Source: Fastidiosibacter lacustris (GTDB lineage Bacteria > Pseudomonadota > Gammaproteobacteria > Francisellales > Francisellaceae). From it: a stretch of DNA of 32,000 bases. The stretch lies in assembly GCF_003428155.1 (NCBI RefSeq), contig NZ_QLIR01000001.1, forward strand, positions 150,001 through 182,000, given 5' to 3'. This document shows positions 1,194 through 31,435 of the stretch, in pieces (position 1 is the first letter of the stretch; every line of letters begins with the position of its first letter). The notes under the pieces are model-generated. The model was not told the origin of the DNA. It saw nothing but the letters and a program-made list of their open reading frames with translations, and made no database searches. The position numbers and the translations under genes are program-made.

Positions 1194-1205
1194 ATTTTTC
1201 TACTC

Positions 1206-1529: not shown

Positions 1530-1555
1530 TTTTTAACTCCTATTTTTATTGCCTG

Positions 1556-1621: not shown

Positions 1622-1687
1622 GTAAAGCAAGTGGTTTTTAAAAAAATATTAAGTTTTTTTGGATAATGATGGTTAGTAGTCAATCAA

Positions 1688-1767
1688 ATAATCCCGCACA
1701 ATCTTAACTCATATTTAGCCCCATTCTTGATCTATACCATCGGGGGAGGGTCTAAAAATAATGAGAG
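1688..1767 (+). repeat. 80-bp direct repeat, copy 1 (leader, SD and first 7 nt of gpW)
   Basis: Identical to 7537..7616 except at 2 positions (1742 g vs a, 1752 c vs g). It includes GGGAGGG and ATGAGAG. Confidence 0.95.
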
Positions 1768-2096
1768 GGGTAGACCGTTTTACAGGACGTGCCATTGATG
1801 ATATTGAGCACGTCCAGCAATCAATTAGAGATATTTTAACCACGCCAATTGGGACGCGTGTAATGCTGCGTAACTATGGCAGTCGTTTGTTTGATTTTAT
1901 TGACAAACCGATGAATAACCAAACGATTGTACAAGTGATATTAGCAGCAGCGCAAGCTATTGATACATGGGAGCCAAGGGTCAAACTTACGCGCGTTGTG
2001 CCAACGATTACCAATAGCGGTCGCTTAACTATCGACGTTGATTTTACTTATCAACCTAATGGCAAACCTGCTCAGTTGCGCGGGGTGGTGTTATGA
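1761..2096 (+). CDS. gpW: Baseplate wedge protein W (GPW/gp25 family)
   Basis: 111 aa. The motif 'IRDILTTPIGTRVMLRNYGSRLFDFIDKP' is the classic gp25/gpW signature. The stop overlaps the gpJ start (ATGA). Confidence 0.9.
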   Translation: MRGVDRFTGRAIDDIEHVQQSIRDILTTPIGTRVMLRNYGSRLFDFIDKPMNNQTIVQVILAAAQAIDTWEPRVKLTRVVPTITNSGRLTIDVDFTYQPNGKPAQLRGVVL

Positions 2097-2941: not shown

Positions 2942-3507
2942 GTTTATTGCCGCCCAATAGTACTGATTTAGAAAAAGCGATGATTGGCGCTTTTGAAGGG
3001 GTGTTAAATGGAAAAGATTGGCTAATTAATAAGCTTTGGAATGCGGACTTATGCCCGTATGAGTTTTTGCCTTATTTGGCAAGTGCCTTGAGTGTTGATT
3101 TTGCGATTTATAATAATTTAACCGAAGCAGAAAAGCGTGAATATATCAAAAAATCGATTGAAATACACCGCCAAAAGGGCACACTCGGGGCGCTTAAAAA
3201 AGCGCTTAATATTACCGACTATGATATTGCTGTAGAGGAATGGTACGAATACAACGGCACGCCGCACACGATTAAGGTCAATATTACTAAACAATCACCG
3301 GGGGCGTTTAACACAGATTTAATTAGTAACACAATAAACGCTAATAAAAATGTACAAACTGTGTGTGTATTATCAGTTAAAACTCATGCATACAACACTA
3401 TCAAAGCAGGCAATAAGACGAGAGCAATCTTGCGCCAAGGCATCCCAACTAATAAAGTTATCGCTTTTGTTGGATGTGGGGTAATGATGCGATTGAGATT
3501 TAAGTAA
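2938..3507 (+). CDS. gpI: Tail/baseplate protein I
   Basis: 189 aa. The motif 'LLPPNSTDLEKA...' matches the N-terminal signature of P2 gpI. The start overlaps the J stop. Confidence 0.8.
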   Translation: MSLLPPNSTDLEKAMIGAFEGVLNGKDWLINKLWNADLCPYEFLPYLASALSVDFAIYNNLTEAEKREYIKKSIEIHRQKGTLGALKKALNITDYDIAVEEWYEYNGTPHTIKVNITKQSPGAFNTDLISNTINANKNVQTVCVLSVKTHAYNTIKAGNKTRAILRQGIPTNKVIAFVGCGVMMRLRFK

Positions 3508-3530
3508 AAGTATTAAAAAAAGGGGGTAAA

Positions 3531-4622
3531 ATGCCACAATTAATATTAACACAAAACGCACTGGCAAAACTTGCCAACGCACAACAAACAGGGGTACAGG
3601 TAAAACTGAGCCAGTTTGAATTAACCAACAGCGCAGATGCTACACTTGAGATAAAAGGCAACAATCTATATAAGGGAGGGATATCAAGTATTAGCAACGA
3701 GAATGCGACCACCTTGCGCGTTAAATGTTTAATGCCAGCAGGACTCGCAATCAATGATGTGGTACAAAAATGCTATTTGTACGATGAACAAGGTGACGTA
3801 TTTGCCTACGGACCGATTAACAGTTTTAAATACACACAAGATGCAAATATTGAGGCTGAAATTAATATTTACTTGACCTTTAGTGATAGCGACATGGCTA
3901 GTGTATCGCTTATCGTGCCATCAGATAGTTTTGTCGATTTTAAAACGTTTAATGAGCATCAACACGATGAGCGCTATGTTAATAAAGTGCAATATCATGG
4001 CGATATACAGACCTTTGCAAGGCGTTATGTGACAGAGATCGATTTAAGTGATCTGCCATTTGATATGATGTATCCAGTGCCTTTTTGTGGTGGTGGATAT
4101 CCTGCAAGAACAGAGGTGCAAATATTTCGTGAAGGGCACTGGAATAGTCAGAGCGATTTAGATGGCGACAAAGTGTCTGGAGATCCAAGTGTATCAGCTG
4201 TAAATATTTGTTTTACACTTTCAAGTTACCCATGGGGCGTGCCACAACTCATGCTGAAATTAGTAAACAATATTCAGGTTTATCGGAATGTAGTTTCAGA
4301 TATATCTTGGAAATTATTATTGAAAACTGAAAAGCTAGATGAAAACGGCAATGATACAGCACACAATACACCCACCAGATATATTAATGGGGATGGATTC
4401 AATAAAAACTATAATTCATCGGGTTTTTATCTTAGAGGTGGGTTAATGTATCACATTATATGCAACCAGAGCATCGAGTTTAATGTACACACTAAACCTT
4501 ACATTGTTCGTGAATCTTCGAATGCCACTTCCAATGTGAGATGGACTGCTTTACCTATCCCTGTGGCAGAAGCAAATTTTGGTAATACTAATTATGATGG
4601 ACGTGAGGGAGTATATTTATGA
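3531..4622 (+). CDS. Tail fibre protein (gpH-like N-terminus, divergent C-terminal receptor-binding part)
   Basis: 363 aa. The N-terminus 'ILTQNALAKLANAQQTGVQVKLSQFELTNS' resembles the conserved baseplate-attachment (tail-collar) domain of P2 gpH. A strong SD (aaggggg) precedes the start. I recognise nothing in the C-terminal two thirds. Confidence 0.75.
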   Translation: MPQLILTQNALAKLANAQQTGVQVKLSQFELTNSADATLEIKGNNLYKGGISSISNENATTLRVKCLMPAGLAINDVVQKCYLYDEQGDVFAYGPINSFKYTQDANIEAEINIYLTFSDSDMASVSLIVPSDSFVDFKTFNEHQHDERYVNKVQYHGDIQTFARRYVTEIDLSDLPFDMMYPVPFCGGGYPARTEVQIFREGHWNSQSDLDGDKVSGDPSVSAVNICFTLSSYPWGVPQLMLKLVNNIQVYRNVVSDISWKLLLKTEKLDENGNDTAHNTPTRYINGDGFNKNYNSSGFYLRGGLMYHIICNQSIEFNVHTKPYIVRESSNATSNVRWTALPIPVAEANFGNTNYDGREGVYL

Positions 4623-5134
4623 TTAAAGAAGTAAAACTGCCGAATGGGCGAATATTAATAAATGTGCCCGCGAATGAATTATATAGTTTGGGACTTGATG
4701 AAGCGCATATACAGCAGTTATTGCTTGTTGATGCGCAAGATGCAGCAAAAATAAGGGTGCTGAATTTTACAAAGCGAATACGTCAATACTTATATGGTCA
4801 CTCGGAAGCTGAGCGCATGGTGGGCTGGGTAGAAAAAGAAAAACGGGCAAGGCGGGTATTGGCGGGTGCAGCTACGGATGTAGATAAACAGCAACTAACG
4901 ATTGAAGCAACCAAGCGCGGGTTTGGTGAGACGATTGAACAATTAGCGCAAAGACAAATTGAACTGGCGGATATTTTAGCATTGCAAAATGCTGAATTAG
5001 ATGGTTTAGAGATTAAAGCAGTTGATGGGGTCCAACACGCGACAAGTATTGCTCAAGTGGACGGGCTGTTTGAGCAGTTTAAGCAAGATGCGGAGAGGAG
5101 CCTTAAAAATATTAAGATGTATAGGGGTGCTTGA
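4619..5134 (+). CDS. Hypothetical phage protein in the position of the tail-fibre assembly chaperone (gpG position)
   Basis: 171 aa, start overlapping the fibre stop (ATGA). The sequence does not show the usual gpG/Tfa N-terminal motif, so the functional call rests on position only. Confidence 0.4.
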   Translation: MIKEVKLPNGRILINVPANELYSLGLDEAHIQQLLLVDAQDAAKIRVLNFTKRIRQYLYGHSEAERMVGWVEKEKRARRVLAGAATDVDKQQLTIEATKRGFGETIEQLAQRQIELADILALQNAELDGLEIKAVDGVQHATSIAQVDGLFEQFKQDAERSLKNIKMYRGA

Positions 5135-5214
5135 TAAAACTAGTATTAATTCGCACAAACTTTATACATTTAAGACTTTACACCGTTAATCAGACTAAGG
5201 GGGGGGGTATCCGT

Positions 5215-5538
5215 GTGAATGTGATTAGGGCAATATTAAGTATATTACCAAGCATGATTATTTTACTGTTTGTTTTAGGAGGAGCTTATTATTTAGACAG
5301 TAAGCTTAACAAAATGAATGATATGTGGCTATCAGCCAATCAAGTAACAGTCAAAAACCAAAACGAGCAAATTAAAATCAATAAGGCTTTTGGTAAGCAG
5401 ATGGATACATTTACCAATTACATCCATGCATTACCACAAGATGAGCGCAGTCAATGGCTGGAGACTTACAGTTTGAATGTCCAGGAGATGTTGTACACGC
5501 CACCGAAGGGGCTCAAAACCCAAGAAGATGTTAAATGA
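5215..5538 (+). CDS. Small membrane-anchored protein (one N-terminal TM helix; i-spanin-like or exclusion protein)
   Basis: GTG at 5215 lies 7 nt after a G9 run that can act as SD. 'AILSILPSMIILLFVLGGAYYL' is one hydrophobic helix, followed by a polar, helical-looking domain. The ORF-track start at 5131 (TTG) adds a non-hydrophobic 28-aa extension and is less likely. Confidence 0.6.
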   Translation: MNVIRAILSILPSMIILLFVLGGAYYLDSKLNKMNDMWLSANQVTVKNQNEQIKINKAFGKQMDTFTNYIHALPQDERSQWLETYSLNVQEMLYTPPKGLKTQEDVK

Positions 5539-5774
5539 AAATTGTTTTATCGTTAACGTTTTTATTGTTAGGCGGTTGCAGCTTATTGCCGCGCGCGCAA
5601 GTCTCTGGGCATATCCCGCCTGAGCTAATGGAGCAAAGGTTAGTACACGGCTGTGCCACAATACAAAATGAACTCAAGCTTGCAAGCTGTTATTTAAAAA
5701 CGCGAGAAGCATTGTATTTGGCGAATCAAGATAAGCAGGACCTGGCAGAGCTAGAGCGTATTTGGAGCAAATGA
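5535..5774 (+). CDS. Small lipoprotein (o-spanin-like or exclusion lipoprotein)
   Basis: 79 aa. 'MKIVLSLTFLLLGGC' is a signal peptide with a lipobox-like LGGC. The start overlaps the upstream stop (ATGA). Confidence 0.65.
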   Translation: MKIVLSLTFLLLGGCSLLPRAQVSGHIPPELMEQRLVHGCATIQNELKLASCYLKTREALYLANQDKQDLAELERIWSK

Positions 5775-5809
5775 TTGATGAATATTAATGAGAAAGAGGG
5801 GAAAGTATA

Positions 5810-6958
5810 ATGAGTGCATTTTACCATGGGGTGGAAGTTGTTGAAATTGATGGCGGTGCGCGTCCAATTCGCACGGTTAAATCCAGTGTGATTGGATTAA
5901 TTGGGACCGCTCCAGATGCCGATAATGCGGTATTTCCACTCAATGCGCCTGTGCTAATTGCGGGCAACAGAACCGAAGCGGCAAAGTTGGGCAGTAATGG
6001 GACATTGCCAGATGCAATCGATGGCATCTTTGACCAAGTTGGGGCAATGGTGGTAGTAGTACGCGTTGACCATGCCGATGATAACGCACAAATGTTAGCC
6101 AATGTGCAAGGAGGTATTGACAGTGATACAGGGCAGCGCACGGGTGTGCAGGCATTTTTGGATGCGGGGTCCACATTGGGTTTAATCCCCCGCATTTTAA
6201 TTGCGCCAAATTTTAGCAATGAGGCGGGGATTGTACAGGAGTTAATGAGCATTGCCGAGCGCTTAAAAGCGGTGATTATTGCCGAGGCACCGAGCACCAC
6301 CGATACGGCTGCTATTGCTTATCGGAAAAACTTTGGTTCGGCACGTGTGTATGTAATTGACCCGCGCGTAATGGTTTTAGCCAGTGGCGTGGAGGTTGCC
6401 AAGCCAAGCTCGCCACGTATTGCAGGTTTAATGGCGCGTATTGATAAAGCGTATGGTTGGCATTACTCCCCATCAAATCATGAGATTTATGGCGTAACGG
6501 CGACAGAGCGCGCTATTGACTTTGAATTAAATGGCGAATGTCGTGCGAATTACTTAAACGAAAATAAGATAGCAACCATTATTAATCAAAATGGTTTTAG
6601 GTTATGGGGCAACTTAACGTGCTCAAATGATCCTAAGTGGCAGTTTTTAAGTGTGAGACGCACCGCTGATATGTTGAACGAGTCGCTGCTATATGCACAT
6701 AACTGGGCAGTTGATAGGGGTATTAGCAAGACCTTTGTCGATGATATTGTGATGAGCGTCAATGGTTATCTTAGATCACTCGTTGCTCAAGGACGCATCT
6801 TGGGTGGTAAATGCTGGGCGGACCCAGAGTTAAACAGTGAGAATGAGATTGCTAATGGGCATGTGACATTTAGTTTTGATTTTACGCCTGTTTATCCCGC
6901 CCAACATATTACATTTAATAGCCATTTAGTAAATGATTATATTTCGGAAATCTTTTAA
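5810..6958 (+). CDS. FI: Contractile tail sheath protein FI
   Basis: 382 aa. The N-terminus 'YHGVEVVEIDGGARPI' is typical of P2 FI-type sheaths. It is followed by the tube gene, and a good SD (agagggg) precedes the start. Confidence 0.9.
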   Translation: MSAFYHGVEVVEIDGGARPIRTVKSSVIGLIGTAPDADNAVFPLNAPVLIAGNRTEAAKLGSNGTLPDAIDGIFDQVGAMVVVVRVDHADDNAQMLANVQGGIDSDTGQRTGVQAFLDAGSTLGLIPRILIAPNFSNEAGIVQELMSIAERLKAVIIAEAPSTTDTAAIAYRKNFGSARVYVIDPRVMVLASGVEVAKPSSPRIAGLMARIDKAYGWHYSPSNHEIYGVTATERAIDFELNGECRANYLNENKIATIINQNGFRLWGNLTCSNDPKWQFLSVRRTADMLNESLLYAHNWAVDRGISKTFVDDIVMSVNGYLRSLVAQGRILGGKCWADPELNSENEIANGHVTFSFDFTPVYPAQHITFNSHLVNDYISEIF

Positions 6959-6987
6959 TTAAAAAAGAGTAATAGGGAGCAAAAAGC

Positions 6988-7485
6988 ATGTTTAACAATA
7001 TTTTAATTAACTTTGGTGTGTATCTGGACGGCATTGCTTATCTTGGCACCGCTAGCGAAGTACAGCTGCCAAAAGTTACGGTCAAAACGGAAGAATGGAC
7101 AGCTGCTGGCATGTCAGGCACGGTTGATGTGGATACGGGCAAGGTTGAAAAGATGGAGTCGGTAATTAAGTTTAAGGGCTTACAAACAGACCCAATCAAA
7201 CTGATTGGTAACAAAGAAGCGCCATTAATTATCCGTGGCAGTTTGCGTAATAAAGACGGCACAGAAAAGAAACTTACAATTGAAATGAGAGGGCTTGTTA
7301 AAGACTATGACAATGGCACCATTAATGCTGAGTCATTGGGTGAGACGAGTGTCACCCTGTCAGTCAGTTATTATCGCTTTAATGCCGATGGTGAGGACTT
7401 GATTGAAATCGACCCGATTAACAATGTCCGCAATATCAATGGTAGTAATCAATTAGAGGGCGTATTAGCCAATATTTCAAACTAA
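6988..7485 (+). CDS. FII: Tail tube protein FII
   Basis: 165 aa, immediately after the sheath gene. Size and position match P2 FII, and the SD is gggag. Confidence 0.85.
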   Translation: MFNNILINFGVYLDGIAYLGTASEVQLPKVTVKTEEWTAAGMSGTVDVDTGKVEKMESVIKFKGLQTDPIKLIGNKEAPLIIRGSLRNKDGTEKKLTIEMRGLVKDYDNGTINAESLGETSVTLSVSYYRFNADGEDLIEIDPINNVRNINGSNQLEGVLANISN

Positions 7486-7536
7486 TAAAAATTGCTTTGT
7501 AATCAGTAAATGAGTACATGTCAAGTGTATCTCACC

Positions 7537-7616
7537 ATAATCCCGCACAATCTTAACTCATATTTAGCCCCATTCTTGATCTATACCATCAGGGGAGGGT
7601 GTAAAAATAATGAGAG
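7537..7616 (+). repeat. 80-bp direct repeat, copy 2 (leader, SD and first 7 nt of gpE)
   Basis: 78/80 identical to 1688..1767. Confidence 0.95.
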
Positions 7617-7876
7617 TAACCTTACGCAATCAGGTCAAATTAACCAGTGGTGAGCATACCAATGTCATCAATTTTCGAGAGCCCACGCGAGGTGATTTAA
7701 AAGCCGTTGCTAATATTGAGAATGATATTGCCAAAGAAGATATGCTGATCAGTCGTTTAACTGGCATATCACTAGCGTCACTTGATGATGTGGTAATGGC
7801 AGACAGTGCTAAGCTGCAACAGGCATTAAGTGAGATCACGGATGCTAATTACGACCCAAAGCATATAATGAATTAA
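7610..7876 (+). CDS. gpE: Tail assembly chaperone E
   Basis: 88 aa, located between the tube and tape measure genes. 'INFREPTRGDLKAV' is gpE-like. Confidence 0.85.
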   Translation: MRVTLRNQVKLTSGEHTNVINFREPTRGDLKAVANIENDIAKEDMLISRLTGISLASLDDVVMADSAKLQQALSEITDANYDPKHIMN

Positions 7877-8004
7877 TCTTTGTCATAGCAACACAAACAG
7901 GCTGGCAAATCAGTGAGTTAGATAATTTACCATTGTCTGAGCTGATTAAATATTACAAACTTGCAGTGGATTGGATAAAAGCCAAAAGTGGCTTAGATAA
8001 ATAG
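7610..8004 (+). CDS. gpE+E': Tail assembly chaperone E+E' (programmed -1 frameshift product)
   Basis: The slippery heptamer C_CCA_AAG at 7855..7861 sits in the E frame. The -1 frame is open from 7849 and reads ...AYNELIFVIATQTGWQISELDNLPLSELIKYYKLAVDWIKAKSGLDK* to the TAG at 8002..8004, just before the tape measure start. Confidence 0.8.
7855..7861 (+). promoter_or_regulatory. -1 ribosomal frameshift slippery site CCCAAAG
   Basis: It has the X_XXY_YYZ pattern in the zero frame of gpE (gac cca aag). Confidence 0.75.
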
Positions 8005-8014
8005 TGAGTAAACG

Positions 8015-9874
8015 ATGGCAAACTGGAACAAAAAAGTTAGTCTTGAGTTGGGTGGCAGTATTAACCCAAGCTTTAGTAAAGTAACCGACAGCGCGATAAA
8101 GAGCCTGGATTATCTGGGCAGAAAAGAGAAGTCATTAAAAGATAATCAGGCGCTTATTGGTAAATTACAAGCTGATCAAGCTGCAATTGCTAAAACAAAC
8201 ACAAGCTATAAATCACAAGTTGCTGAGCTTAAAGCCTTGCAGCGCGCGTACAATGCGGCAGGCGGACAAGATGATAAATTATCGGCAAAAATATCCAAAA
8301 AACAGCAGCAGGTAAATAAAACGAATGCAGCACTCCAATCTCAAAAAAAAGGATTAAAGGAGCTTGGCACCTCACTTAAAAAAGCAGGTATTGACACCGC
8401 TAACTTAACGTCAGAAGAAAAACGTTTGCAAATGCAGTTAGAAAAAACGCAAAGACAGGCAAGGATTAAAGGCAACACATTATCAACGCTTGGCGCTGGC
8501 ATAAGTAAGCTCAAATATGTCGCTTTAGGTGTTACAGCTGCCGTTGGTGCAATAGGAGCTGCTACGATGAAATTAGTGGGTAGCTTTGCTGGACATGCTG
8601 ACAATATTGCCAAAACCGCCGACAAGCTTAATCTGAGTACAGACGCATTGCAAGAACTGCGTTATGCCGCTGGTCTTGCGGGCATATCAACCGAAAAGCT
8701 CGACAAGTCATTAGAGTTTATGCAAAAAAATGTGGTGGATGCCGCCAATGGGACAGGTGAAGCAAAAGATGCTCTAAATCAACTGGGCTTAAGTGCTGAG
8801 GAACTTAAATCATTAAAGCCAGACCAGGCATTAGGGCTTATTGCCGATGCTATGAATGGGGTGGCAAATAACCAAGAACGCTTGCGCATTGCCACACGGA
8901 TATTTGGACGTGAAGGTGCTGACATGGTGAATATGCTTAAGAATGGCTCCAAAGGCTTAAAAGAACTGGGTAAAGAAGCGCATGAAACGGGTGCTGTGTT
9001 TGAAGAAAAATCATTACGTGCAGCAGAGCTCAATACCGATGCTTATGGGAGAATGACACTAAGCTTACAGAGCGTAGCTTTTTCAGTTGCCAATGAGCTT
9101 ATGCCGAAAATGACAATTTTATTTACGAATATGACCGAATGGATTGCGGCAAATCGCGGGCAAATAGGCGAATGGGTGAAATCCTTTAGTAGTATGATTA
9201 GCTCAGTGTTTAGTGGTGTAAAGGCAGTTGGGAGCTTTATTCAATCAACCATTGGACTAGATAATGCCTTCAAAATAGTCGGCGGGACAATGGCGTTTAG
9301 CATGGTCAATAAAATTATGAATCTAGGCTCAGTCATCAAAGGGCTTGGCACTACATTTAAGCTGGTGAGTCGACTTTTTTTGACGAATCCCATTGGTTTG
9401 GCAATCACAGGAATTGCCGCAGCGGCATTACTCATATACAAATATTGGGAGCCTATTAAAGACTTCTTTGCAGGCTTGTGGGACGGCATAAAAAACATAT
9501 TCAACAGCGCGATTGATTTTATTGCAAAGCTGTTTGAGCCACAGGTAAAAATGATTAAATGGGTAGCGGAGAAGGCGACCTCAGTGGCTAAGTTCTTTGG
9601 GCTTGGTGGCAGTGATAAAGCAGAAAAAAGTGCAAATGCTGAAAATAAAATCAGCTGGAATAACTATAAGCCGTTGCAAACGGAGGATTTCAGTCAATTG
9701 CAACAGCAAGTTAAAGCAGCTAATCAGCAAATCAACAACAGCAATAAAACCAATAATGTGACAATCACCAATCAAGTTACGGTACAAGGCAATGGCGATA
9801 AATTATCGATTATGCAAGGGGTTGAAGAAGCCACGCAAAAGGCACTATATGACTTTAATTATGGAGGCGTTTAA
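8015..9874 (+). CDS. gpT: Tail tape measure protein T
   Basis: 619 aa. The N-terminal half looks like Q/K/A-rich coiled coil, with Gly/Ala-rich hydrophobic segments in the middle. It lies after E/E'. Confidence 0.9.
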   Translation: MANWNKKVSLELGGSINPSFSKVTDSAIKSLDYLGRKEKSLKDNQALIGKLQADQAAIAKTNTSYKSQVAELKALQRAYNAAGGQDDKLSAKISKKQQQVNKTNAALQSQKKGLKELGTSLKKAGIDTANLTSEEKRLQMQLEKTQRQARIKGNTLSTLGAGISKLKYVALGVTAAVGAIGAATMKLVGSFAGHADNIAKTADKLNLSTDALQELRYAAGLAGISTEKLDKSLEFMQKNVVDAANGTGEAKDALNQLGLSAEELKSLKPDQALGLIADAMNGVANNQERLRIATRIFGREGADMVNMLKNGSKGLKELGKEAHETGAVFEEKSLRAAELNTDAYGRMTLSLQSVAFSVANELMPKMTILFTNMTEWIAANRGQIGEWVKSFSSMISSVFSGVKAVGSFIQSTIGLDNAFKIVGGTMAFSMVNKIMNLGSVIKGLGTTFKLVSRLFLTNPIGLAITGIAAAALLIYKYWEPIKDFFAGLWDGIKNIFNSAIDFIAKLFEPQVKMIKWVAEKATSVAKFFGLGGSDKAEKSANAENKISWNNYKPLQTEDFSQLQQQVKAANQQINNSNKTNNVTITNQVTVQGNGDKLSIMQGVEEATQKALYDFNYGGV

Positions 9875-9876
9875 AA

Positions 9877-10293
9877 ATGGCGTTTATTCCGTTAGTACTT
9901 GGCAAGTTGCCATTTAGTGTTAATACTGCAACTTACAATAAGATAAGCAAAAGCTACTCAAGTAACTGGGCAACGCAAGAGCGGGTTAATAATAGCCCAG
10001 CTCTGCAAAATACGGGGGACCAGTCAGAAACCATGACTATCTCAGGGGTGACCTTTCCGTGTGACAATCTAGGGGCAAAAGGCGCTCTTGTAGCATTAAG
10101 AGAGCTCGCAGCCAGTCAAGACAGTAATTTTTTATTTGATTTAGATGGCTTTATTTACGGCAAATGGGCAATAACCAATATCCAGCAAGAGAACACCAAC
10201 AACAGCAACACAAGTTACTCGGTGAGTTTATCACGCTATCCAGAAACCACGGCAATTGACCAAGCGAAAGCTTATGTAAAAAATGCGATCTAA
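9877..10293 (+). CDS. gpU: Tail protein U
   Basis: 138 aa, directly after the tape measure gene. Size and position match P2 gpU. Confidence 0.75.
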   Translation: MAFIPLVLGKLPFSVNTATYNKISKSYSSNWATQERVNNSPALQNTGDQSETMTISGVTFPCDNLGAKGALVALRELAASQDSNFLFDLDGFIYGKWAITNIQQENTNNSNTSYSVSLSRYPETTAIDQAKAYVKNAI

Positions 10294-10302
10294 AATTCAC
10301 CA

Positions 10303-10331
10303 TTGGAGTTTATAAAAAAATTGAGTATAAT
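10303..10331 (+). promoter_or_regulatory. Putative sigma70-type promoter for the cargo gene
   Basis: TTGGAG (10303..10308), a 17-nt spacer, then a perfect TATAAT (10326..10331), in the 65-bp gap after gpU. Confidence 0.45.
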
Positions 10332-10358
10332 TTAATAAAAAATAAATGGTTGTTTAAA

Positions 10359-11411
10359 ATGTCGGATGTGCTTATTGAAATTTTGAAAATGATTGATTCA
10401 GGAAATCGTAAAAAATCAGAAGTGGCAAAAAACATAGCGGAAAAGCATGGTGTAACTGTCCAAAACGTGTACCAACATCTGAAAAAATTAGAGAAGCCAA
10501 TGCAAATTTTTGAGTGCAGTAAGGGATACCTCCATTTATTGCAAAAACGCTTATTTGCTCAGAATTTTAAACTAAAAGATATTACAAAAGAAGCTAGTGA
10601 ATACGATATTTGGATTAAACATATTCTGTCCCTTATTAAAAATGATATCGAGCTTAAAGACTCAATGTTTCATGTCTTTACAGAAATGTTAAACAATGCA
10701 ATAGAACATTCTGAAGGTGATACTATAAGGATTGCTTTATTTGAAAGTGCATATGGATATTTGGTATCGATTACTGATAACGGGGTGGGTATTTTTAAAA
10801 AAATCTGTAGATATAAGAATTTGAAAGATGAGCAGCATGCTATGTTTGAGTTATCAAAAGGGCGCCTAACAACAATGCCAGAAGCTCACTCTGGAGAGGG
10901 TATCTTCTTTTCTTCTAAAATTAGTGATGAATTTTCCATAATTTCACATGGTTTAATTTTTCATCATGAGCTTGATGTTAATAGTCTTTCTGAGCTTGAG
11001 GGCATGGCCAGAAGAAGTATGTATGAAGGGACAAAAGTTGTTTTTAAAATAAATAAATTTACCCCTAAATCTGTCACTGCAATATTCAAGCAATATACAG
11101 TTATAGATGAGGAGGGAGAATATATGTTTTCAAAGACAATTATAAAGGCAAAATTAATTCAATATGAAAATGAAGCACTAGTTTCACGTTCACAAGCCAA
11201 GCGTTTGCTGACACGAGTTAATGAGTTTAAAGAAGCAGTGATTGATTTTGCGGGAATTCGGTTGATTGGGCAGGGCTTTGCCGATGAAGTTTTTCGTGTT
11301 TTTACAACACGTTATCCTGATGTAAAATTAACGTATGTTAATGCTGAACCAGATGTTGATTTCATGATTAAGCGCGCAGTTGGCACTGCTAAGATCAATA
11401 AAAAAAGTTAA
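10359..11411 (+). CDS. Cargo (moron) protein: N-terminal wHTH + SpoIIAB/RsbW-like GHKL ATPase + C-terminal STAS-like (DUF4325-type) domain
   Basis: The ATG at 10359 is preferred over the track's TTG at 10350. 'SEVAKNIAEKHGVTVQNVYQHLKKLEK' is HTH-like. The Bergerat-fold boxes are the N-box 'TEMLNNAIEHS', G1 'TDNGVGIF' and G2 'HSGEGIFF'. The C-terminus 'SRSQAKRLLTRVNEFKEAVIDFAGIRLIGQGFADEVFRVF' matches my memory of the DUF4325/STAS-like signature. Motifs were read by eye only. Confidence 0.7.
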   Translation: MSDVLIEILKMIDSGNRKKSEVAKNIAEKHGVTVQNVYQHLKKLEKPMQIFECSKGYLHLLQKRLFAQNFKLKDITKEASEYDIWIKHILSLIKNDIELKDSMFHVFTEMLNNAIEHSEGDTIRIALFESAYGYLVSITDNGVGIFKKICRYKNLKDEQHAMFELSKGRLTTMPEAHSGEGIFFSSKISDEFSIISHGLIFHHELDVNSLSELEGMARRSMYEGTKVVFKINKFTPKSVTAIFKQYTVIDEEGEYMFSKTIIKAKLIQYENEALVSRSQAKRLLTRVNEFKEAVIDFAGIRLIGQGFADEVFRVFTTRYPDVKLTYVNAEPDVDFMIKRAVGTAKINKKS

Positions 11412-11430
11412 TTTTAAGGATTTTTGTATT

Positions 11431-11631
11431 ATGGCTAAATACACCACGAAAGACGGAGATATGCTCGATTATATTTGCTACAAGTATTACGGCACGACAG
11501 AAGTTACTAACAAAGTGCTTGAGGCAAATCGTGAGCTGGCAAAATTAGGTGCAGTACTCCCATCTGGTATTACCATTGAATTACCAGAGATTGAAAAGCC
11601 AACAGCTAAAAGAAGAGTAACCTTATGGTAA
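11431..11631 (+). CDS. gpX: Tail protein X (LysM-like)
   Basis: ATG at 11431 with an AAGGA SD at 11416..11420. 'KDGDMLDYICYKYYG...VLEANRELA...LPSGITIELPE' is the gpX signature. The track start at 11380 overlaps the upstream gene and is rejected. Confidence 0.85.
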   Translation: MAKYTTKDGDMLDYICYKYYGTTEVTNKVLEANRELAKLGAVLPSGITIELPEIEKPTAKRRVTLW

Positions 11632-12611
11632 TTGACTATCAAATCTTAGCCGATGATAAAGACATCACCGCAAAGATAAAAGCAGCGTTGGTTAGTTTAA
11701 CGATTACCGATACAACAGGAGACCATGCCGATGGATTAAGTTTGCATTTGGCAGACTACACGGATTCACTTAAATTTCCTGAGTCTAGTGCGAAGCTTAA
11801 TGTACATCTTGGCTACAAAGACAATCTGCATGATTTTGGTTTTTTCTTTGTTGATACGATGAGCTACCGTTATCCGCCAAGCGTATTAAGTTTAAATGCT
11901 AATAGCGTGCCCTTTGCGGCATCAAATACATACAAGGCGATGCAGACCCAACAAACACGCTCTTTTGACAATATAACGCTTGCAAGTTTAGTGGATATAA
12001 TTGCAAAAGAGCATGGGCTAGAGTCATCTGTTATACCAGGGCTAGGTAAAATACAAATTGAGCACATCGACCAAACCGATGAGGGCAATATCGGTTTTTT
12101 GTATCGAGTAGTTAGGCAGCATGGTTGCACATTAAAACCTACGCACACTAAATTAGTCGTGCTTGATGAGAAAGGCAAAAACGCCAAAGACGAGGACATC
12201 TTAACACTTACACTCGACCTAAAACAAATATCACAGCTAAGCTATAGCAGTAAAAAAGAAGCAAAGTTTAGAAGTGTGAATGCGAAATATCACGATGTTG
12301 ATAGCGCCGAAACAAAAAAAGTAACTGTAGGGAGTGGGCAACCTGAATTCGCCCTATCCTGGACATACGAAAACGAAGCAGCGGCAAAAGCAGCAGCTAA
12401 CAGAGAATTAAAAGGGTACGCGCTTGATATTGACTCCTTGAATATTACAACCATCGGCAATCCTGACATTATTGCGGGGGCGCCAATTATAATAAAAGGG
12501 TTGCGTGAGGATATACCGCAGGACTGGTATGTTAAAACAGCAACACACTCCCTTAGTAAACAAGGGTATCAAACCAGTGCTCAGTTGACGCTTAAACAGT
12601 TAAACGAGTAG
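11625..12611 (+). CDS. gpD: Late control / tail protein D
   Basis: 328 aa. The N-terminus 'YQILADDKDITAKIKAALVSLTITDTTGDHADGLSLHLAD' is gpD-like. The start overlaps the X stop. Confidence 0.85.
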   Translation: MVIDYQILADDKDITAKIKAALVSLTITDTTGDHADGLSLHLADYTDSLKFPESSAKLNVHLGYKDNLHDFGFFFVDTMSYRYPPSVLSLNANSVPFAASNTYKAMQTQQTRSFDNITLASLVDIIAKEHGLESSVIPGLGKIQIEHIDQTDEGNIGFLYRVVRQHGCTLKPTHTKLVVLDEKGKNAKDEDILTLTLDLKQISQLSYSSKKEAKFRSVNAKYHDVDSAETKKVTVGSGQPEFALSWTYENEAAAKAAANRELKGYALDIDSLNITTIGNPDIIAGAPIIIKGLREDIPQDWYVKTATHSLSKQGYQTSAQLTLKQLNE

Positions 12612-12637: not shown

Positions 12638-13765
12638 TCATAACAAATCAACTGCCTTTTGTCTATGTTCCGGGGCTAAATGCGCATATCTAAGTGTCAT
12701 TTTAAAATCACTGTGACCAAGCAGCTCTCTAACTACTGATAAACTTTCGCCCTTCATTATAAGCTGGCTGGCAAAGTTATGTCGTAAATCATGGAAACGG
12801 AAATTATCTATTTCTGTTTTTTTCATTAATGTAATCCACGACTTATTAATATTATCCAACTTGCCACCCGTTATTGGTGACTTAAAAACAAGCCCGCTCT
12901 GATTACCATTACTGCAAATATCAAGAAACATTTGCCGGACATTTTTGTGCATGGGAATACTGCGAGCATGACCTGATTTAGTGTTATCTTTATCTAAAGT
13001 AATTTGATTAGTTTTTAAATCAATATCACTCCATTTAAGTGTAAATATTTCACCTCTGCGCATCCCTGTATAATAAGCGAGAGTGACTATGTTACGAATC
13101 AATTTGTCAGCACCATCTAATGCAGTTAATAACGCCTCAGATTCACGACTAGATAAATAACGTATTTTACCAGAAGACTCCTTGAATTTTTTAAATCCAG
13201 TTAACTTATTTGCTTGCAAATAACCAAACTCTACAGCCCTACTTATTGCCCCTTTTAAAACGGTAGCAGTTTTATTCAAGGTTGAATCTGAAACATTCGA
13301 CTCGCTTTTATATTGAAATAAGAAATTATTTAGAATTTTTAAATCAATCTCATTTAGTAACATATTATGCAATGACTTGGATACAACCAAAAGCCTATGA
13401 TGCGTTTGCTTATAACTTCTATGGTTTTTTTTACTCCAATCTAAATAGAAACGGTCAAGATAGTTTTTTAATGTTAATTTATCATGTTGTGCTTTTTCTT
13501 TTTGTATGTCTTGACCTTGTGACACTAAAAGCAACAGTCGTTGCGCTTCTTTTTTGGCAACCGGCAAGGGGATTGTAGGAAATTTGCCAATGGTATAACG
13601 CTTTTGCTTCTTTTCAGAATTCCGATAAATTATTGAAAAAGTTTTAGCACCAGATGGAAATACTCTTAAAACTAAGCAATTAACTTCTGAGTCGAAATAG
13701 TCTATTATTTTATTGGTTGGTTCTAGTTCAGAAATGTTTGTTTTAGTTAATTTTAATTTGGGCAT
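12638..13765 (-). CDS. int: Tyrosine integrase, P4-like (N-terminal arm-binding DUF4102-type domain)
   Basis: 'MPKLKLTKTNISELEP' is the typical N-terminus, with AGGA 6 nt upstream. The catalytic residues are in 'YTGMRRGEI', 'HDLRHNFAS' and 'LGHSDFKMTLRYAHL'. The upstream track start at 13798 is rejected. Confidence 0.9.
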   Translation of the reverse strand: MPKLKLTKTNISELEPTNKIIDYFDSEVNCLVLRVFPSGAKTFSIIYRNSEKKQKRYTIGKFPTIPLPVAKKEAQRLLLLVSQGQDIQKEKAQHDKLTLKNYLDRFYLDWSKKNHRSYKQTHHRLLVVSKSLHNMLLNEIDLKILNNFLFQYKSESNVSDSTLNKTATVLKGAISRAVEFGYLQANKLTGFKKFKESSGKIRYLSSRESEALLTALDGADKLIRNIVTLAYYTGMRRGEIFTLKWSDIDLKTNQITLDKDNTKSGHARSIPMHKNVRQMFLDICSNGNQSGLVFKSPITGGKLDNINKSWITLMKKTEIDNFRFHDLRHNFASQLIMKGESLSVVRELLGHSDFKMTLRYAHLAPEHRQKAVDLL

Positions 13766-13812
13766 TTTATTCCTGGTTTTAGGTAGACCAATGGTCATAG
13801 TATAGCATTTAC

Positions 13813-13831
13813 AGGTAACATATAGGTAACA
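13813..13831. repeat. Two direct AGGTAACA repeats with 11-bp phasing (possible integrase arm-type sites or int operator)
   Basis: aggtaaca occurs at 13813..13820 and 13824..13831, in the AT-rich int-to-att spacer. Confidence 0.3.
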
Positions 13832-13961
13832 AAAAATAATAAAACCGAGAGGAAAAACTTCTTTCTCCGAAAATAAAAAATGTTACTAAAAGTCATTAAA
13901 ATAAATGGTTTCCCCATCTTGAGCTGCATGTAAAAAATCAGCGAAAATGACCTGCACCCCC

Positions 13962-14006
13962 CTCCGGAGCCAAAGGTCAGGCGTTCGAATCGCCTCGGGT
14001 GCACCA
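13962..14006 (+). tRNA. 3' fragment of a tRNA-Arg(CCG) gene (anticodon loop to CCA); probable attR core
   Basis: The segment reads CTCCGGA (loop, anticodon CCG), GCCAA, AGGTC (variable), AGGCG-TTCGAAT-CGCCT (T arm), CGGGTGC-A-CCA. No complementary anticodon-stem 5' strand, D arm or 5' acceptor strand is present at tRNA spacing upstream, so the gene is incomplete here. Confidence 0.6.
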
Positions 14007-14016
14007 TATGATTAAG

Positions 14017-14451
14017 CTACTTCACAAGTAAGTTTCTTAGCTGTGACAGATAAACTTCTTGATCTGCAACGGTGCTATTTTTCTGTGCACTCCAGATTGA
14101 TTCAGCAAGATAATTCATCATTTTATGGTGAACGGTGTGTTCATCGTTCAAGTGTGCTTTACATAAGGCGTGATAGATATCACTAATTCCTTGTGGTCGA
14201 TTAGTAATAACTTGTTCAATAAGTGCTAAATGTAAGCTCATATGCAAAAATGGATTGGTTTCACCAAGCTCAGGTGGAAAATCTTTGTCAAGATTGTAAA
14301 GGTTAGACAAAAAATTTTGGTATTCTGGATGATACTCGATTACACGTACAATTTGTATTTCTAGGTCCGTTAAAAGCTGTTTATTTAAGTGTTTATACCA
14401 ACTATCAAAATAAAGTTTTCTAAGTTCAAGTCGGGTTGGGTTAAAAATCAT
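14017..14451 (-). CDS. DUF1841-like conserved hypothetical protein
   Basis: 144 aa. The start overlaps the nth stop. The family assignment is from memory of the motif pattern ('WYKH...L..LE..I..VI..HPEY'). Confidence 0.6.
   Translation of the reverse strand: MIFNPTRLELRKLYFDSWYKHLNKQLLTDLEIQIVRVIEYHPEYQNFLSNLYNLDKDFPPELGETNPFLHMSLHLALIEQVITNRPQGISDIYHALCKAHLNDEHTVHHKMMNYLAESIWSAQKNSTVADQEVYLSQLRNLLVK

Positions 14452-31358: not shown

Positions 31359-31435
<77 letters not shown>

What the first reader, a model, noticed from the sequence alone, without database searches (positions are those of the whole stretch)
10294..11411. Single-gene moron splitting the conserved gpU-gpX-gpD block: wHTH + SpoIIAB-like GHKL ATPase + STAS-like domain in one polypeptide
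**Seen in the sequence:**
- A ~350-aa ORF sits between gpU and gpX. In the related tail clusters I know (phiCTX, R-type pyocins), U, X and D are adjacent.
- It is preceded by the only intergenic gap in this part of the operon, which holds TTGGAG-N17-TATAAT. This layout is typical of a moron expressed from the lysogen.
- Hand counts on a few 60-nt stretches gave about 27-32% G+C inside the gene, against about 37-52% in flanking gpU and gpD. This is not a full computation.
- The protein reads as a winged-HTH (aa ~1-50), then a Bergerat-fold ATPase with all three boxes (NNAIEHS, DNGVGI, GEGIFF).
- The C-terminus resembles the STAS-like DUF4325 signature (…VIDFAGIRLIGQGFADEVF…).

**Inference:** This places the kinase/anti-sigma half and the STAS half of a partner-switching module on one chain, with a DNA-binding head. 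It has no plausible role in tail assembly. Accessory genes wedged into P2-like structural operons are often anti-phage or lysogenic-conversion functions. I therefore consider this the best candidate for an uncharacterised prophage-encoded sensor/effector (defence, exclusion or regulatory switch). I do not know of a described function for this architecture.
Basis: partly seen in the sequence, partly recalled or inferred. Interest (0 to 1): 0.8.

Follow-up and report, generated by a model that had tools for sequence, protein, structure and literature searches.

The report
Prophage cargo gene: one-chain kinase–STAS switch
A prophage of Fastidiosibacter lacustris carries, wedged into its tail genes, an accessory gene with its own promoter that joins a DNA-binding head, an anti-sigma-type kinase/ATPase and a STAS regulatory domain in one protein; this widespread family has never been studied and its closest characterised relatives sense DNA damage to control bacterial immunity.

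Summary
A 350-aa ORF (10359..11411, +) lies between gpU and gpX of a P2-like tail cluster. It has a weak N-terminal wHTH, a SpoIIAB-like GHKL domain (ExxxNxxxH, DxGxG and GxG all intact; the best PDB fold match is SpoIIAB) and a C-terminal DUF4325 STAS-like domain (Pfam 8e-15). G+C is 33.5% against 40.9% for the prophage.

- **It is a moron.** The closest prophages (85-95% identical tail proteins) have U abutting X, or a 46-aa ORF there. One of them carries the 64%-identical homologue in another slot on the opposite strand, with promoter hexamers at matching positions.
- **The family is large and solitary.** There are 634 clusters at 50% identity. No neighbour is conserved and immediate neighbours are not clearly enriched for defence genes. 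At least 37 other proviral lineages have captured it.
- **Closest characterised relatives** are CapK/CapS and VapKSC (EMBO J 2026). VapS is itself a DUF4325 protein, but its phospho-acceptor Ser corresponds here to an invariant Gln.
- **Core family members carry phased GTTGACAAT repeats upstream.** These co-vary with the wHTH recognition helix. The window copy lacks them.

My best reading is a self-contained ATP-driven regulatory switch, not a tail part. A defence role is neither shown nor excluded.

The parts
10294..10358 (+). AT-rich (17% G+C) upstream region of the cargo gene. It holds the promoter-like TTGGAG (10303-10308), a 17-nt spacer and TATAAT (10326-10331).
   Evidence: The sequence was read directly and its G+C computed. 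The hexamers align column for column with TTGACT-N16-TAAAAT upstream of the 64%-identical homologue in L115/L117, which sits in a different slot and orientation. The site is not significant by itself. There are no family-type GTTGACAAT boxes here.
10359..11411 (+). Cargo (moron) gene encoding a 350-aa wHTH / SpoIIAB-like GHKL ATPase-kinase / DUF4325 STAS-like protein. Alternative starts are TTG 10350 and GTG 10368. It corresponds to WP_192877917.1 of Fastidiosibacter lacustris.
   Evidence: ORF and translation. Pfam. Source organism and accession. AF2 model with pLDDT 90. Foldseek top hits SpoIIAB, TM 0.72. Family invariant residues.
10359..10568 (+). N-terminal winged-helix domain (aa 1-70). 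The recognition helix is VTVQNVYQHLKKL, which differs from the core-family ISRQAVNKHL.
   Evidence: Weak HTH_20/MarR/ArsR hits. The AF2 secondary structure is H3-13, H19-30, H34-44 plus a beta wing at 50-71. Helix comparison.
10659..11063 (+). GHKL (Bergerat-fold) domain, about aa 101-235. N box: E109-x3-N113-x3-H117. G1: D140-x-G142-x-G144. Lid/G2: K167 G168 ... H177-x-G179-x-G181.
   Evidence: HATPase_c at 1.8e-7. The N box to G1 stretch aligns with VraS/DesK and with CapK. The best structural match is SpoIIAB. All catalytic residues are identical in 119 of 119 sequences.
11124..11378 (+). C-terminal DUF4325 STAS-like domain, about aa 256-340. S276-R-S-Q-A-K-R is invariant at the N-cap of helix 1. 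G304-Q305-(A/G)-F307 is invariant at the N-cap of helix 2, where STAS substrates carry the phospho-Ser.
   Evidence: PF14213 at 8.1e-15. VapS also matches PF14213, at 2.7e-17. hhalign puts VapS S48 opposite Q305. Residue counts. Helix boundaries.
11412..11430 (+). 19-nt spacer after the cargo gene that supplies a Shine-Dalgarno-like AAGGA for gpX. No terminator is predicted, so late-operon transcripts should read through U, the cargo gene, X and D.
   Evidence: Sequence read directly. In L008 the U stop region overlaps the X start, with GGAG lying inside U. The terminator scan finds none here.
9877..10293 (+). gpU (tail protein), left flank of the insertion.
   Evidence: PF06995 at 2.2e-20 and phrog_76.
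11431..11631 (+). gpX (LysM-like tail protein X), right flank of the insertion.
   Evidence: PF05489 at 3.9e-19 and phrog_46.

Best explanation
The gene is a promoter-bearing accessory cassette (moron) that this Fastidiosibacter/Caedibacter phage lineage carries in varying slots of its tail module. It has no part in tail assembly.

**The protein (shown).** It is a self-contained, one-polypeptide relative of the GHKL-kinase/STAS partner-switch modules (SpoIIAB-SpoIIAA, CapK-CapS, VapK-VapS). It has a winged-helix DNA-binding head, a catalytically intact SpoIIAB-type ATPase/Ser-kinase domain and a VapS-type (DUF4325) STAS domain.

**The likely mechanism (inferred).**
- The STAS domain has an invariant Gln where substrates have the phospho-Ser. 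I infer that it is not a substrate at the canonical site.
- It more likely acts in cis, or head-to-tail between protomers, as a regulatory or pseudo-substrate partner of the ATP-binding domain.
- ATP binding or hydrolysis, or phosphorylation at another site such as the invariant S276/S278, would then switch the protein between states that differ in DNA binding by the wHTH.

**Autoregulation.**
- In the core family the target is the gene's own promoter. That promoter is built from phased GTTGACAAT boxes that co-vary with the recognition helix, which makes the protein an autoregulated stand-alone switch.
- By analogy with CapK and VapK, the signal could be a stress or infection cue such as ssDNA.
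- In the window copy the recognition helix has diverged and the boxes are gone. Its DNA target and downstream output in the lysogen remain unknown.
For: **Moron status**
- The gene is absent from the U-X junction of L008 (U abuts X), L009 and L115 (a 46-aa ORF instead) and L010, the KIRK-like phage.
- In the syntenic prophage L115 the homologue (64% identical) sits on the opposite strand between tail-fibre-assembly genes.
- G+C is 33.5% against 40.9%.
- Promoter hexamers are positionally conserved across the two slots.
- At least 37 further proviral lineages carry family members next to terminase, integrase, repressor or gpD genes.

**Architecture**
- Pfam, the AF2 model at pLDDT 90 / pTM 0.86 and SpoIIAB as best PDB fold match at TM 0.72 all agree.
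- ExxxNxxxH, DxGxG and HxGxG are invariant in 119 of 119 sequences.

**Link to CapKS/VapKSC**
- VapS is a DUF4325 protein.
- The family N box to G1 stretch aligns with CapK, and the family wHTH with that of CapS.
- Those systems' function is described in PMC13373217.

**No canonical acceptor**
- Q305 is present in 119 of 119 sequences. Position 306 is Ala 99, Gly 18, Pro 1, Ser 1.

**Stand-alone gene**
- No neighbour family recurs in more than 3 of 79 loci.
- The window copy has 65 nt upstream and 19 nt downstream, leaving no room for a partner gene.
- There is no second STAS-like ORF in the 32 kb.

**Autoregulation in the family**
- 58 of 115 upstream regions have at least 2 boxes spaced 20-23 bp, against 0.12 in shuffles.
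- Downstream regions show no marked excess of boxes (23 of 108 with a box on either strand) and no conserved motif.
- Phased boxes occur in 57 of 76 members with the [ST]RQ[AST] helix, against 5 of 39 without it.
Against: - No experiment exists for any member of this architecture.
- The cis or pseudo-substrate role of the STAS domain is inferred from sequence only. I could not inspect the model coordinates, so domain docking was not checked.
- Similarity to CapK and CapS is weak (hhalign probabilities 28-38%) and the domain order differs.
- The wHTH hits are below Pfam thresholds.
- The window copy lacks the operator boxes, so the autoregulation argument does not transfer directly to it.
- The helix/box co-variation is confounded by phylogeny, because most box-less members are the divergent proviral ones.
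- A regulator with no adjacent target gene and frequent horizontal transfer is unusual. That pattern fits a self-sufficient conflict gene at least as well.
Confidence: 0.5

Rival explanations
1. It is a single-gene anti-phage defence or superinfection-exclusion system. The GHKL kinase is held inactive by its own pseudo-substrate STAS domain. An infection cue (for example ssDNA or a phage protein) releases it, and it then phosphorylates host or phage proteins, or depletes ATP, and so aborts infection. The wHTH acts as sensor or autoregulator.
For: - Phage lineages have captured the gene repeatedly, in classical moron slots.
- Its distribution across many phyla is sporadic and suggests horizontal transfer, always as a solitary cassette with its own promoter.
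- The nearest characterised relatives belong to immune regulation, and VapKSC gives about 2 logs of protection against one phage (PMC13373217).
- Rare fusions join it to DUF4062, AAA_16 and RHS repeats; linking these domains to conflict systems rests on my own knowledge, not on a tool result.
- A few neighbours are defence genes: SIR2-pAgo, RT, SoFic, SAVED.
Against: - PADLOC-DB gives no hit for the GHKL or STAS parts.
- The immediate neighbours in 79 genomes are overwhelmingly housekeeping genes, with no clear defence-island pattern.
- There is no recognisable effector domain.
- None of 50,697 sequenced phages, and no PLSDB plasmid, carries a homologue.
- No experimental data exist.
Confidence: 0.25
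2. It is an anti-sigma-factor-like lysogenic-conversion factor. The SpoIIAB-type domain binds and sequesters a host or phage sigma factor or another transcription protein. The fused STAS domain competes for the same surface in an ATP-dependent way, and the wHTH tethers the complex to DNA. The result is reprogrammed host transcription in the lysogen.
For: - The best structural matches are the anti-sigma factors SpoIIAB and UsfX, in their complexes with sigma F or with an antagonist.
- The core-family boxes contain the sigma-70 -35 consensus TTGACA. Their 21-22-bp phasing places the GACAAT of the next box at -10 distance, a 17-18-nt spacer (and arithmetic on it). The protein would therefore act exactly where RNA polymerase binds.
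Against: - No sigma factor gene is linked in any of the loci inspected.
- A partner-specific anti-sigma factor would not be expected to move freely between phyla at about 40% identity.
- The window copy lacks the boxes.
Confidence: 0.1
3. It is a trans-acting kinase, or a counter-defence decoy, aimed at stand-alone DUF4325/STAS proteins of the host or of other phages (VapS- or CapS-like antitoxins and repressors). The phage would use it to trigger or to blunt host VapKSC/CapKS-type circuits.
For: - Stand-alone DUF4325 proteins are the known substrates of CapK-like kinases (PMC13373217).
- Phages carry small DUF4325 proteins, including the related Francisella phage KIRK (Fhv_0047, PMC7924643) and several BFVD entries.
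- The non-phosphorylatable Gln would suit a decoy.
Against: - The Gln is invariant in the whole family, most of which is chromosomal and not phage-borne. It is therefore not a phage-specific adaptation.
- There is no separate STAS gene in the window.
- There is no linkage to vapC- or capS-like genes in 79 loci.
Confidence: 0.08
4. It is a decaying passenger gene with no current function in this prophage.
For: The family-typical operator boxes are missing and the wHTH has diverged.
Against: - The ORF is intact.
- Every residue that is invariant in the other 118 sequences of the alignment is retained in the window protein.
- The 64%-identical homologue in a sister prophage shares the same variant helix and the same promoter layout. 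This indicates a maintained sub-lineage.
Confidence: 0.05

Closest known systems
CapK/CapS (Chambers, Corbett et al., EMBO J 2026, PMC13373217)
   Same: - It combines a GHKL kinase of the anti-sigma type with STAS and (w)HTH domains.
- The family N box to G1 stretch aligns with CapK, and the family wHTH aligns with the CapS wHTH.
- The module is a transcriptional switch. It is mobile and phage/immunity-associated.
   Different: - CapKS is two proteins, HTH-STAS-GHKL plus STAS-wHTH. Here there is one chain with the order wHTH-GHKL-STAS.
- CapS is phosphorylated on a conserved Ser. The equivalent positions here are an invariant Gln followed by Ala/Gly.
- capKS always precedes an immune operon. 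This family has no conserved neighbour.
- The operators differ: CapS binds palindromes, whereas this family has direct repeats at 21-22 bp.
- Sequence similarity is marginal (hhalign probability 28-38%).
VapKSC toxin-antitoxin-like system (same paper); PIN.4 genes 'coupled to DUF4325 genes' (PMC5499597)
   Same: VapS is a bona fide DUF4325 STAS domain (2.7e-17), the same Pfam family as the C-terminal domain here (8.1e-15). VapK is a STAS-GHKL kinase.
   Different: - There is no VapC/PIN partner here or near any homologue.
- The acceptor Ser48 of VapS corresponds to Gln305.
- The kinase and the STAS domain are fused here.
SpoIIAB-SpoIIAA / RsbW-RsbV partner-switching modules
   Same: - SpoIIAB gives the best structural match for the GHKL domain (1til/1l0o/1th8, TM 0.69-0.73 normalised by target).
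- The N-box pattern ExxxNxxxH is the same (comparison by eye with the SpoIIAB sequence, from my own knowledge).
- Both involve an alpha/beta STAS-type partner domain.
   Different: - No sigma factor is involved as far as can be seen.
- The partner is fused in cis and lacks the phospho-Ser.
- A DNA-binding wHTH is added.
- The gene is solitary and horizontally mobile.
Morons of temperate phages (for example ctx of phiCTX; accessory genes in P2-like hot spots)
   Same: It is a single accessory gene with its own promoter and deviant G+C, inserted between conserved late genes and variably present among close relatives. In phiCTX, ctx is annotated with its own -35 and -10 signals.
   Different: - The slot (the U-X junction) is not one of the hot spots known to me from P2-like phages; this rests on my own knowledge.
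- No terminator follows the gene.
- The cargo is an uncharacterised regulator-like protein, not a toxin or a known defence gene.

Membership tests
Pfam PF14213 (DUF4325, STAS-like) | Score above the curated gathering threshold of the profile | tested here: met
   54.7 bits against a cut-off of 23, E = 8.1e-15, aa 282-336 in 353-aa numbering.
GHKL (Bergerat-fold) ATPases, SpoIIAB/RsbW-type | N box (E-x3-N), G1 (DxGxG) and G2 (GxG) motifs in the right order | tested here: met
   E109, N113, H117, D140, G142, G144, G179 and G181 are each present in 119 of 119 family sequences. HATPase_c scores 32 bits against a cut-off of 26.4.
GHKL (Bergerat-fold) ATPases, SpoIIAB/RsbW-type | Fold closest to anti-sigma-factor kinases | tested here: met
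   The top five Foldseek PDB hits are SpoIIAB chains, E = 6.5e-6 to 6.7e-4, TM 0.69-0.73 normalised by target. The model has pLDDT 90.
GHKL (Bergerat-fold) ATPases, SpoIIAB/RsbW-type | ATP binding or hydrolysis, or Ser-kinase activity | not testable with these tools
   This needs biochemistry.
Partner-switching STAS substrates (SpoIIAA, RsbV, CapS, VapS) | Conserved Ser/Thr phospho-acceptor at the N-terminus of STAS helix 2 | tested here: not met
   hhalign aligns VapS S48 with Q305. Q305 is present in 119 of 119 sequences. The next position is Ala 99, Gly 18, Pro 1, Ser 1.
CapK/CapS regulators | Two adjacent genes: HTH-STAS-GHKL kinase followed by STAS-wHTH repressor | tested here: not met
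   There is a single gene with the order wHTH-GHKL-STAS. There is no second STAS ORF in the window and no conserved neighbour in 79 loci.
CapK/CapS regulators | Located immediately upstream of an immune operon (348 of 443 cases in PMC13373217) | tested here: not met
   The window gene is followed by gpX and gpD. The neighbours of chromosomal homologues are mostly housekeeping.
CapK/CapS regulators | Kinase activated by ssDNA | not testable with these tools
   The CapK residues W68, K237 and K239 could not be aligned reliably. Only the N box to G1 stretch aligns.
VapKSC | Three-gene operon including a VapC/PIN toxin | tested here: not met
   No PIN family appears among the 25 most frequent Pfam families of the 144 neighbour proteins, and no neighbour cluster recurs.
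Known anti-phage defence systems (PADLOC-DB v2) | Match to a defence-protein profile | tested here: not met
   The only hits are to the wHTH of Csa3/CARF models, E = 0.01-0.02.
Phage moron | Present or absent among close relatives at an otherwise conserved junction | tested here: met
   L008, L009, L010 and L115 lack it at the U-X junction.
Phage moron | Own promoter (and usually a terminator), with deviant composition | tested here: inconclusive
   The G+C deviation is confirmed. Promoter-like hexamers are conserved in position with L115, but the site is not significant alone and no terminator was found. Transcription was not tested.
P2-like tail structural or assembly proteins | Conserved presence and co-variation with the tail genes | tested here: not met
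   The gene is absent from the closest relatives at this junction. It has no PHROG tail family hit. It is 64% identical to its nearest homologue where the sheath, tube, E, U, X and D proteins are 85-96% identical (other shared proteins of the module 60-82%).

The most novel reading that the evidence does not exclude
The wHTH-GHKL-DUF4325 proteins would be a previously unrecognised class of autonomous, single-polypeptide 'partner-switch' cassettes. Each is a horizontally mobile gene that carries its own portable promoter-operator, made of phased GTTGACAAT boxes in which one box serves as the -35 and the next as the -10. Each polymerises head-to-tail on those direct repeats through GHKL-STAS contacts between protomers. 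Each senses an infection or DNA-damage cue, as CapK does with ssDNA, and so acts as a one-gene immune or stress sensor that temperate phages repeatedly capture as a moron.
Probability: 0.2. Interest if true: 0.8.

Novelty: new variant of a known kind. Interest (0 to 1): 0.6.

Why it matters
- GHKL-kinase/STAS pairs were shown only in 2026 to couple DNA damage to bacterial immune operons and to a toxin-antitoxin system. This window shows a large, uncharacterised sister architecture in which the kinase, the STAS domain and the DNA-binding domain are one chain and the STAS phospho-site is replaced.
- There are 634 clusters at 50% identity, spread across many phyla. The gene always travels alone, and at least 38 phage lineages have picked it up, in three different slots of myovirus tail modules alone.
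- That makes it a compact, experimentally tractable model for how partner-switch signalling can be condensed into one protein. It is also a candidate lysogenic-conversion or exclusion factor.
- The phased GTTGACAAT promoter-operator array gives an immediately testable DNA target for core members.
- For genome annotation, the practical result is that 'DUF4325 domain-containing protein' inside a tail operon marks cargo, not structure.

Tried and rejected
- **Single-sequence AF2 model.** It was useless (pLDDT 39). I repeated the prediction with a 119-sequence alignment.
- **Model coordinates.** They are not exposed to scripts, so I could not check whether the STAS domain docks on the ATP lid.
- **Phage and plasmid collections.**
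  - Nothing matched in INPHARED phages by DNA or protein.
  - Nothing matched in PLSDB plasmids.
  - Nothing matched in IMG/VR with patterns from the single protein. Alignment-derived patterns were needed to find proviral members.
- **Exact look-up of the window protein.** It found no contig on record. The organism came from the cluster members instead.
- **PDB sequence searches.** They found no solved relative for the STAS part.
- **hhalign of the STAS part against single sequences.** There was no usable alignment with CapS, SpoIIAA, or the STAS regions of CapK and VapK. Only VapS aligned.
- **Conserved partner gene.** I looked for a conserved neighbour, a defence-island pattern and a conserved downstream element, and found none.
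- **GTTGACAAT boxes upstream of the window gene.** None were found.
- **Tail-assembly role.** Rejected, because close relatives lack the gene.
- **Kinase fused to its own canonical substrate.** Rejected, because the acceptor Ser is an invariant Gln.
Full report
**1. What is in the window**

The 32-kb window comes from Fastidiosibacter lacustris. The protein is 100% identical to cluster member WP_192877917.1, 'STAS-like domain-containing protein'.

Positions 34-12611 are the tail half of a P2-like prophage, with this gene order:
- gpV, W, J, I and the tail fibre, followed by two small genes;
- sheath, tube, the E chaperone and the tape measure;
- gpU (9877-10293), the ORF in question, gpX (11431-11631) and gpD (11625-12611);
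- an integrase on the other strand (12638-13798).

The ORF runs to 11411. Possible starts are TTG 10350, ATG 10359 (the database representative) and GTG 10368 (NCBI's model).

It is preceded by a 65-nt gap of 17% G+C containing TTGGAG-N17-TATAAT. A 19-nt spacer follows it and provides an AAGGA ribosome-binding site for gpX. No terminator follows.

The gene has 33.5% G+C (GC3 27%), against 40.9% for the rest of the prophage. It is the lowest 1-kb stretch of the prophage part.

**2. Is it a moron?**

Yes. A scan of IMG/VR with gpD returned 27 related tail clusters. The closest behave as follows.
- **L008** has 86-92% identical sheath, tube, U, X and D proteins. The end of U runs straight into the start of X.
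- **L009** is 85-96% identical in the same proteins. It has a 135-bp insert there encoding a 46-aa ORF.
- **L010** is about 50% identical and is the Francisella KIRK-like phage. U and X are adjacent (PMC7924643).

The protein's only close relative in 5.8 billion sequences is 64% identical; the next best is 44%. That relative lies in a metagenomic prophage, L115, which is syntenic with the window. Its sheath, tube, E, U, X and D proteins are 85-96% identical and the other shared proteins 60-82%.

In L115 the gene sits on the opposite strand, between the homologues of window genes 4619-5134 and 5131-5538. The U-X junction of L115 holds the 46-aa ORF. The same cargo therefore occupies two different slots in one phage lineage.

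The regions upstream of the two copies align. TTGGAG/TATAAT of the window falls in the same columns as TTGACT/TAAAAT of L115 and L117. This is the best evidence available here that the gene brings its own promoter. By itself the site is no better than chance.

There X lies next to L and the holin, and U abuts D. The statement does hold for the true relatives of this prophage.

**3. The protein**

Pfam gives these hits:
- DUF4325 (STAS-like), 8.1e-15;
- HATPase_c, 1.8e-7;
- HATPase_c_2, 2.4e-5;
- weak HTH_20 and related HTH families.

A single-sequence AF2 run failed. With a 119-sequence alignment the model is confident (pLDDT 90, pTM 0.86). It shows:
- a three-helix bundle with a beta wing (aa 1-71);
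- an alpha/beta GHKL domain;
- a beta-alpha-beta-alpha-beta-alpha STAS-like domain (aa about 256-349).

The best Foldseek matches in the PDB are SpoIIAB chains (E = 6.5e-6 to 6.7e-4, TM 0.69-0.73 normalised by target). Histidine-kinase catalytic domains and other anti-sigma factors follow. STAS-containing entries appear lower in the list. BFVD has no full-length viral match, only stand-alone small DUF4325-like proteins and one HATPase protein.

In the 119-sequence alignment these residues are invariant:
- E109, N112, N113 and H117, the SpoIIAB-type ExxxNxxxH N box;
- D140, G142 and G144 (G1);
- K167, G168, T171, H177, G179 and G181 (lid and G2);
- S276-R-S-Q-A and G304-Q305-x-F307-x-D309 in the STAS-like domain.

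The GHKL and STAS parts are the most conserved. The commonest residue averages 0.66 and 0.71 of sequences in those parts, against 0.52 in the wHTH.

**4. Relation to what is known**

Only three papers in the library mention DUF4325.
- One notes PIN genes 'transcriptionally coupled to DUF4325 genes' (PMC5499597).
- One lists a 112-aa DUF4325 protein in phage KIRK.
- The third does not bear on this gene and I did not read it.

The key reference is Chambers et al., EMBO J 2026 (PMC13373217).
- CapK (HTH-STAS-GHKL) is activated by ssDNA. It phosphorylates a conserved Ser in the STAS domain of the repressor CapS (STAS-wHTH), which de-represses the adjacent immune operon.
- VapK likewise controls the antitoxin VapS, and through it the toxin VapC.

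I took the CapK, CapS and VapS sequences from the paper's source data and compared them.
- VapS is a clear DUF4325 member (2.7e-17), so the C-terminal domain here belongs to the VapS type of STAS domain.
- The family profile aligns with CapK over the N box to G1 stretch (E = 6e-4).
- Its wHTH aligns with the CapS wHTH (E = 3e-4). Both alignments are weak.
- hhalign places VapS S48, the phospho-acceptor, opposite Q305. By hand the same register holds for SpoIIAA S58 and CapS S53/S54.
- Q305 is present in 119 of 119 sequences. The following residue is Ala 99, Gly 18, Pro 1, Ser 1.

The family therefore has the parts of a kinase/STAS/wHTH circuit in one chain, in a different order and without the canonical acceptor. 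It fails the membership tests for CapKS and VapKSC on gene number, on neighbours and on the acceptor Ser. It plausibly works in a related way.

**5. The family and its contexts**

The family is large. More than 6,900 clusters at 90% identity scored E <= 1e-3 among the candidates examined. In an exhaustive scan of 1.84 billion representatives, 634 clusters at 50% identity reached E <= 1e-30 and 1,431 reached E <= 1e-10. Nearly all members are about 345 aa.

At least 559 places in the collection of 185,579 species-representative genomes encode a relative. The 80 kept span Acidobacteriota, Proteobacteria, Cyanobacteria, Chloroflexota, Desulfobacterota, Actinomycetota, Planctomycetota and a candidate-phyla-radiation (CPR) lineage.

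I analysed 79 of these loci.
- The gene's neighbours vary in strand and distance.
- No neighbour protein cluster recurs in more than 3 loci.
- The 144 immediate neighbours are mostly housekeeping enzymes and transporters.
- Only a handful match defence models.
- Three individually inspected contexts agree with this picture.

No homologue occurs in 50,697 deposited phage genomes or in 72,556 plasmids. However, 58 IMG/VR contigs, forming 37 distinct groups, carry one. In these it lies next to terminase small or large subunits, integrases, repressors, an invertase or gpD. In one group of distantly related myoviruses (L130, L132, L137, L145) it lies just downstream of gpD, inside the tail/baseplate module.

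A few long variants are fused to RHS repeats, DUF4062 or AAA_16.

The window has no second STAS-like ORF, and the flanking gaps leave no room for a small partner gene.

**6. An unexpected family-wide cis element**

K-mer counts on 115 non-redundant 200-nt upstream regions showed extreme enrichment of TTGACAAT. ATTGTCAA and its complement occur in 61 regions, against 1 expected.

- The boxes lie on the coding strand as direct repeats. Their spacing peaks sharply at 22 bp (68 pairs) and 21 bp (36 pairs).
- 58 of 115 regions have at least two boxes 20-23 bp apart, against a mean of 0.12 in shuffles.
- The unit consensus is a.GTTGACAATa-N8-taa.
- Downstream regions show no marked excess of boxes and no other conserved motif.
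- With this phasing, the TTGACA of one box and the GACAAT of the next are separated by 17-18 nt, which is -35/-10 geometry.

Phased boxes are found in 57 of 76 members whose recognition helix reads [ST]RQ[AST]. They are found in only 5 of 39 without that motif, and all 5 of those still have an RQ pair. This supports the wHTH binding its own promoter, with one caveat: relatedness is not corrected for.

Proviral members with a ...NTVYRYI... helix instead show TATAGTT / AACTATAGTT palindromes in the promoter.

The window copy and its L115 relative share a third helix type (VQN[VI]YQHL). The window has no good box: the best is TTGACCAA at 10256, scoring 4.2 bits. L115 keeps only degenerate boxes.

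Direct repeats two helical turns apart suggest head-to-tail rather than two-fold symmetric binding. That would fit a GHKL-STAS contact between neighbouring protomers. This is an inference only.

**7. Verdict**

The gene is cargo, not a tail part.

The most likely mechanism is a self-contained, ATP-driven switch of the partner-switch kind that controls a wHTH. It is autoregulated in the core family, and its STAS domain acts as a regulatory or pseudo-substrate element and not as a canonical substrate. I give this reading a confidence of about 0.5.

A single-gene defence or exclusion role is the main rival, at about 0.25. It is neither supported by gene context nor excluded. What the protein does for the lysogen cannot be decided with these tools.

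I rate it a new variant of a known kind: an uncharacterised architecture related to the very recently described CapKS and VapKSC modules.

Noticed in passing
Loci L035-L114 and L001-L007, the 200 nt upstream of each family gene (for example L074 at -134, -112, -90, -68 and -46 from the start codon): There are direct repeats of GTTGACAAT at 21/22-bp phasing upstream of wHTH-GHKL-DUF4325 genes across many phyla. 58 of 115 regions have phased pairs, against 0.12 in shuffles. One box's TTGACA and the next box's GACAAT have -35/-10 spacing. Phased boxes co-vary with the recognition helix [ST]RQ[AST] (57 of 76 against 5 of 39). They are absent from the window copy.
   Followed up: yes
L118, L142, L149-L152, L159, L162-L169 (IMG/VR), about -30 to -70 from the start codon: Proviral family members with a ...NTVYRYI...-type helix carry TATAGTT half-sites or AACTATAGTT palindromes inside a TTTACA-N17-TATAGT promoter. 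TAACTATA occurs in 10 of 35 regions, against 0.6 expected. This may be a second operator type.
   Followed up: partly
L009:3325-3463 and L115:1622-1762 (the U-X junction of sister prophages): A 46-aa ORF (MMKLTPSVFKRISAQVNYDVLEIAKIFGLSIDQVYDYGSKHKVAQYG) occupies the U-X junction where the window has the 350-aa gene. It has no Pfam hit. The same junction therefore takes different cargo.
   Followed up: partly
window 742-1760 (minus-strand ORF 1206-1529): Between gpV and gpW there is a 1-kb non-syntenic stretch with a 107-aa minus-strand ORF that has no Pfam hit. The sister prophage L115 has an FRG-domain gene (PF08867) in that position. This is probably a second variable cargo slot.
   Followed up: partly
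L115:7884-8399: The sister prophage has an extra 171-aa gene, with no homologue in the window, next to its copy of the cargo gene. It lies between the homologues of window 4619-5134 and 5131-5538.
   Followed up: no
window 12638-14017: The integrase (33.3% G+C, as low as the cargo gene) is not followed by a tRNA gene. ARAGORN finds only one tRNA in the window, tRNA-Met at 31359-31435. The attachment site was not identified.
   Followed up: no
L176 (phiCTX NC_003278) 7727-7936 and 21930-23641: In phiCTX, gpX lies beside L and the holin, and U directly abuts D. The U-X-D order of this window is therefore that of the KIRK-like/R-pyocin-like arrangement, not that of phiCTX.
   Followed up: yes
Proteins P0230, P0272, P0189: Rare long family members are fused to RHS repeats at the N-terminus, or to DUF4062 or AAA_16 at the C-terminus. 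To my knowledge these domains occur in polymorphic-toxin and STAND conflict systems. They could also be gene-calling artefacts.
   Followed up: partly
Phage KIRK (PMC7924643, Fhv_0047) and BFVD entries A0A8S5RZ86, A0A514A0Y8, G9FH20: Stand-alone DUF4325-like proteins of about 90-112 aa occur in several phages, including the Francisella relative of this prophage. Their role is unknown.
   Followed up: no
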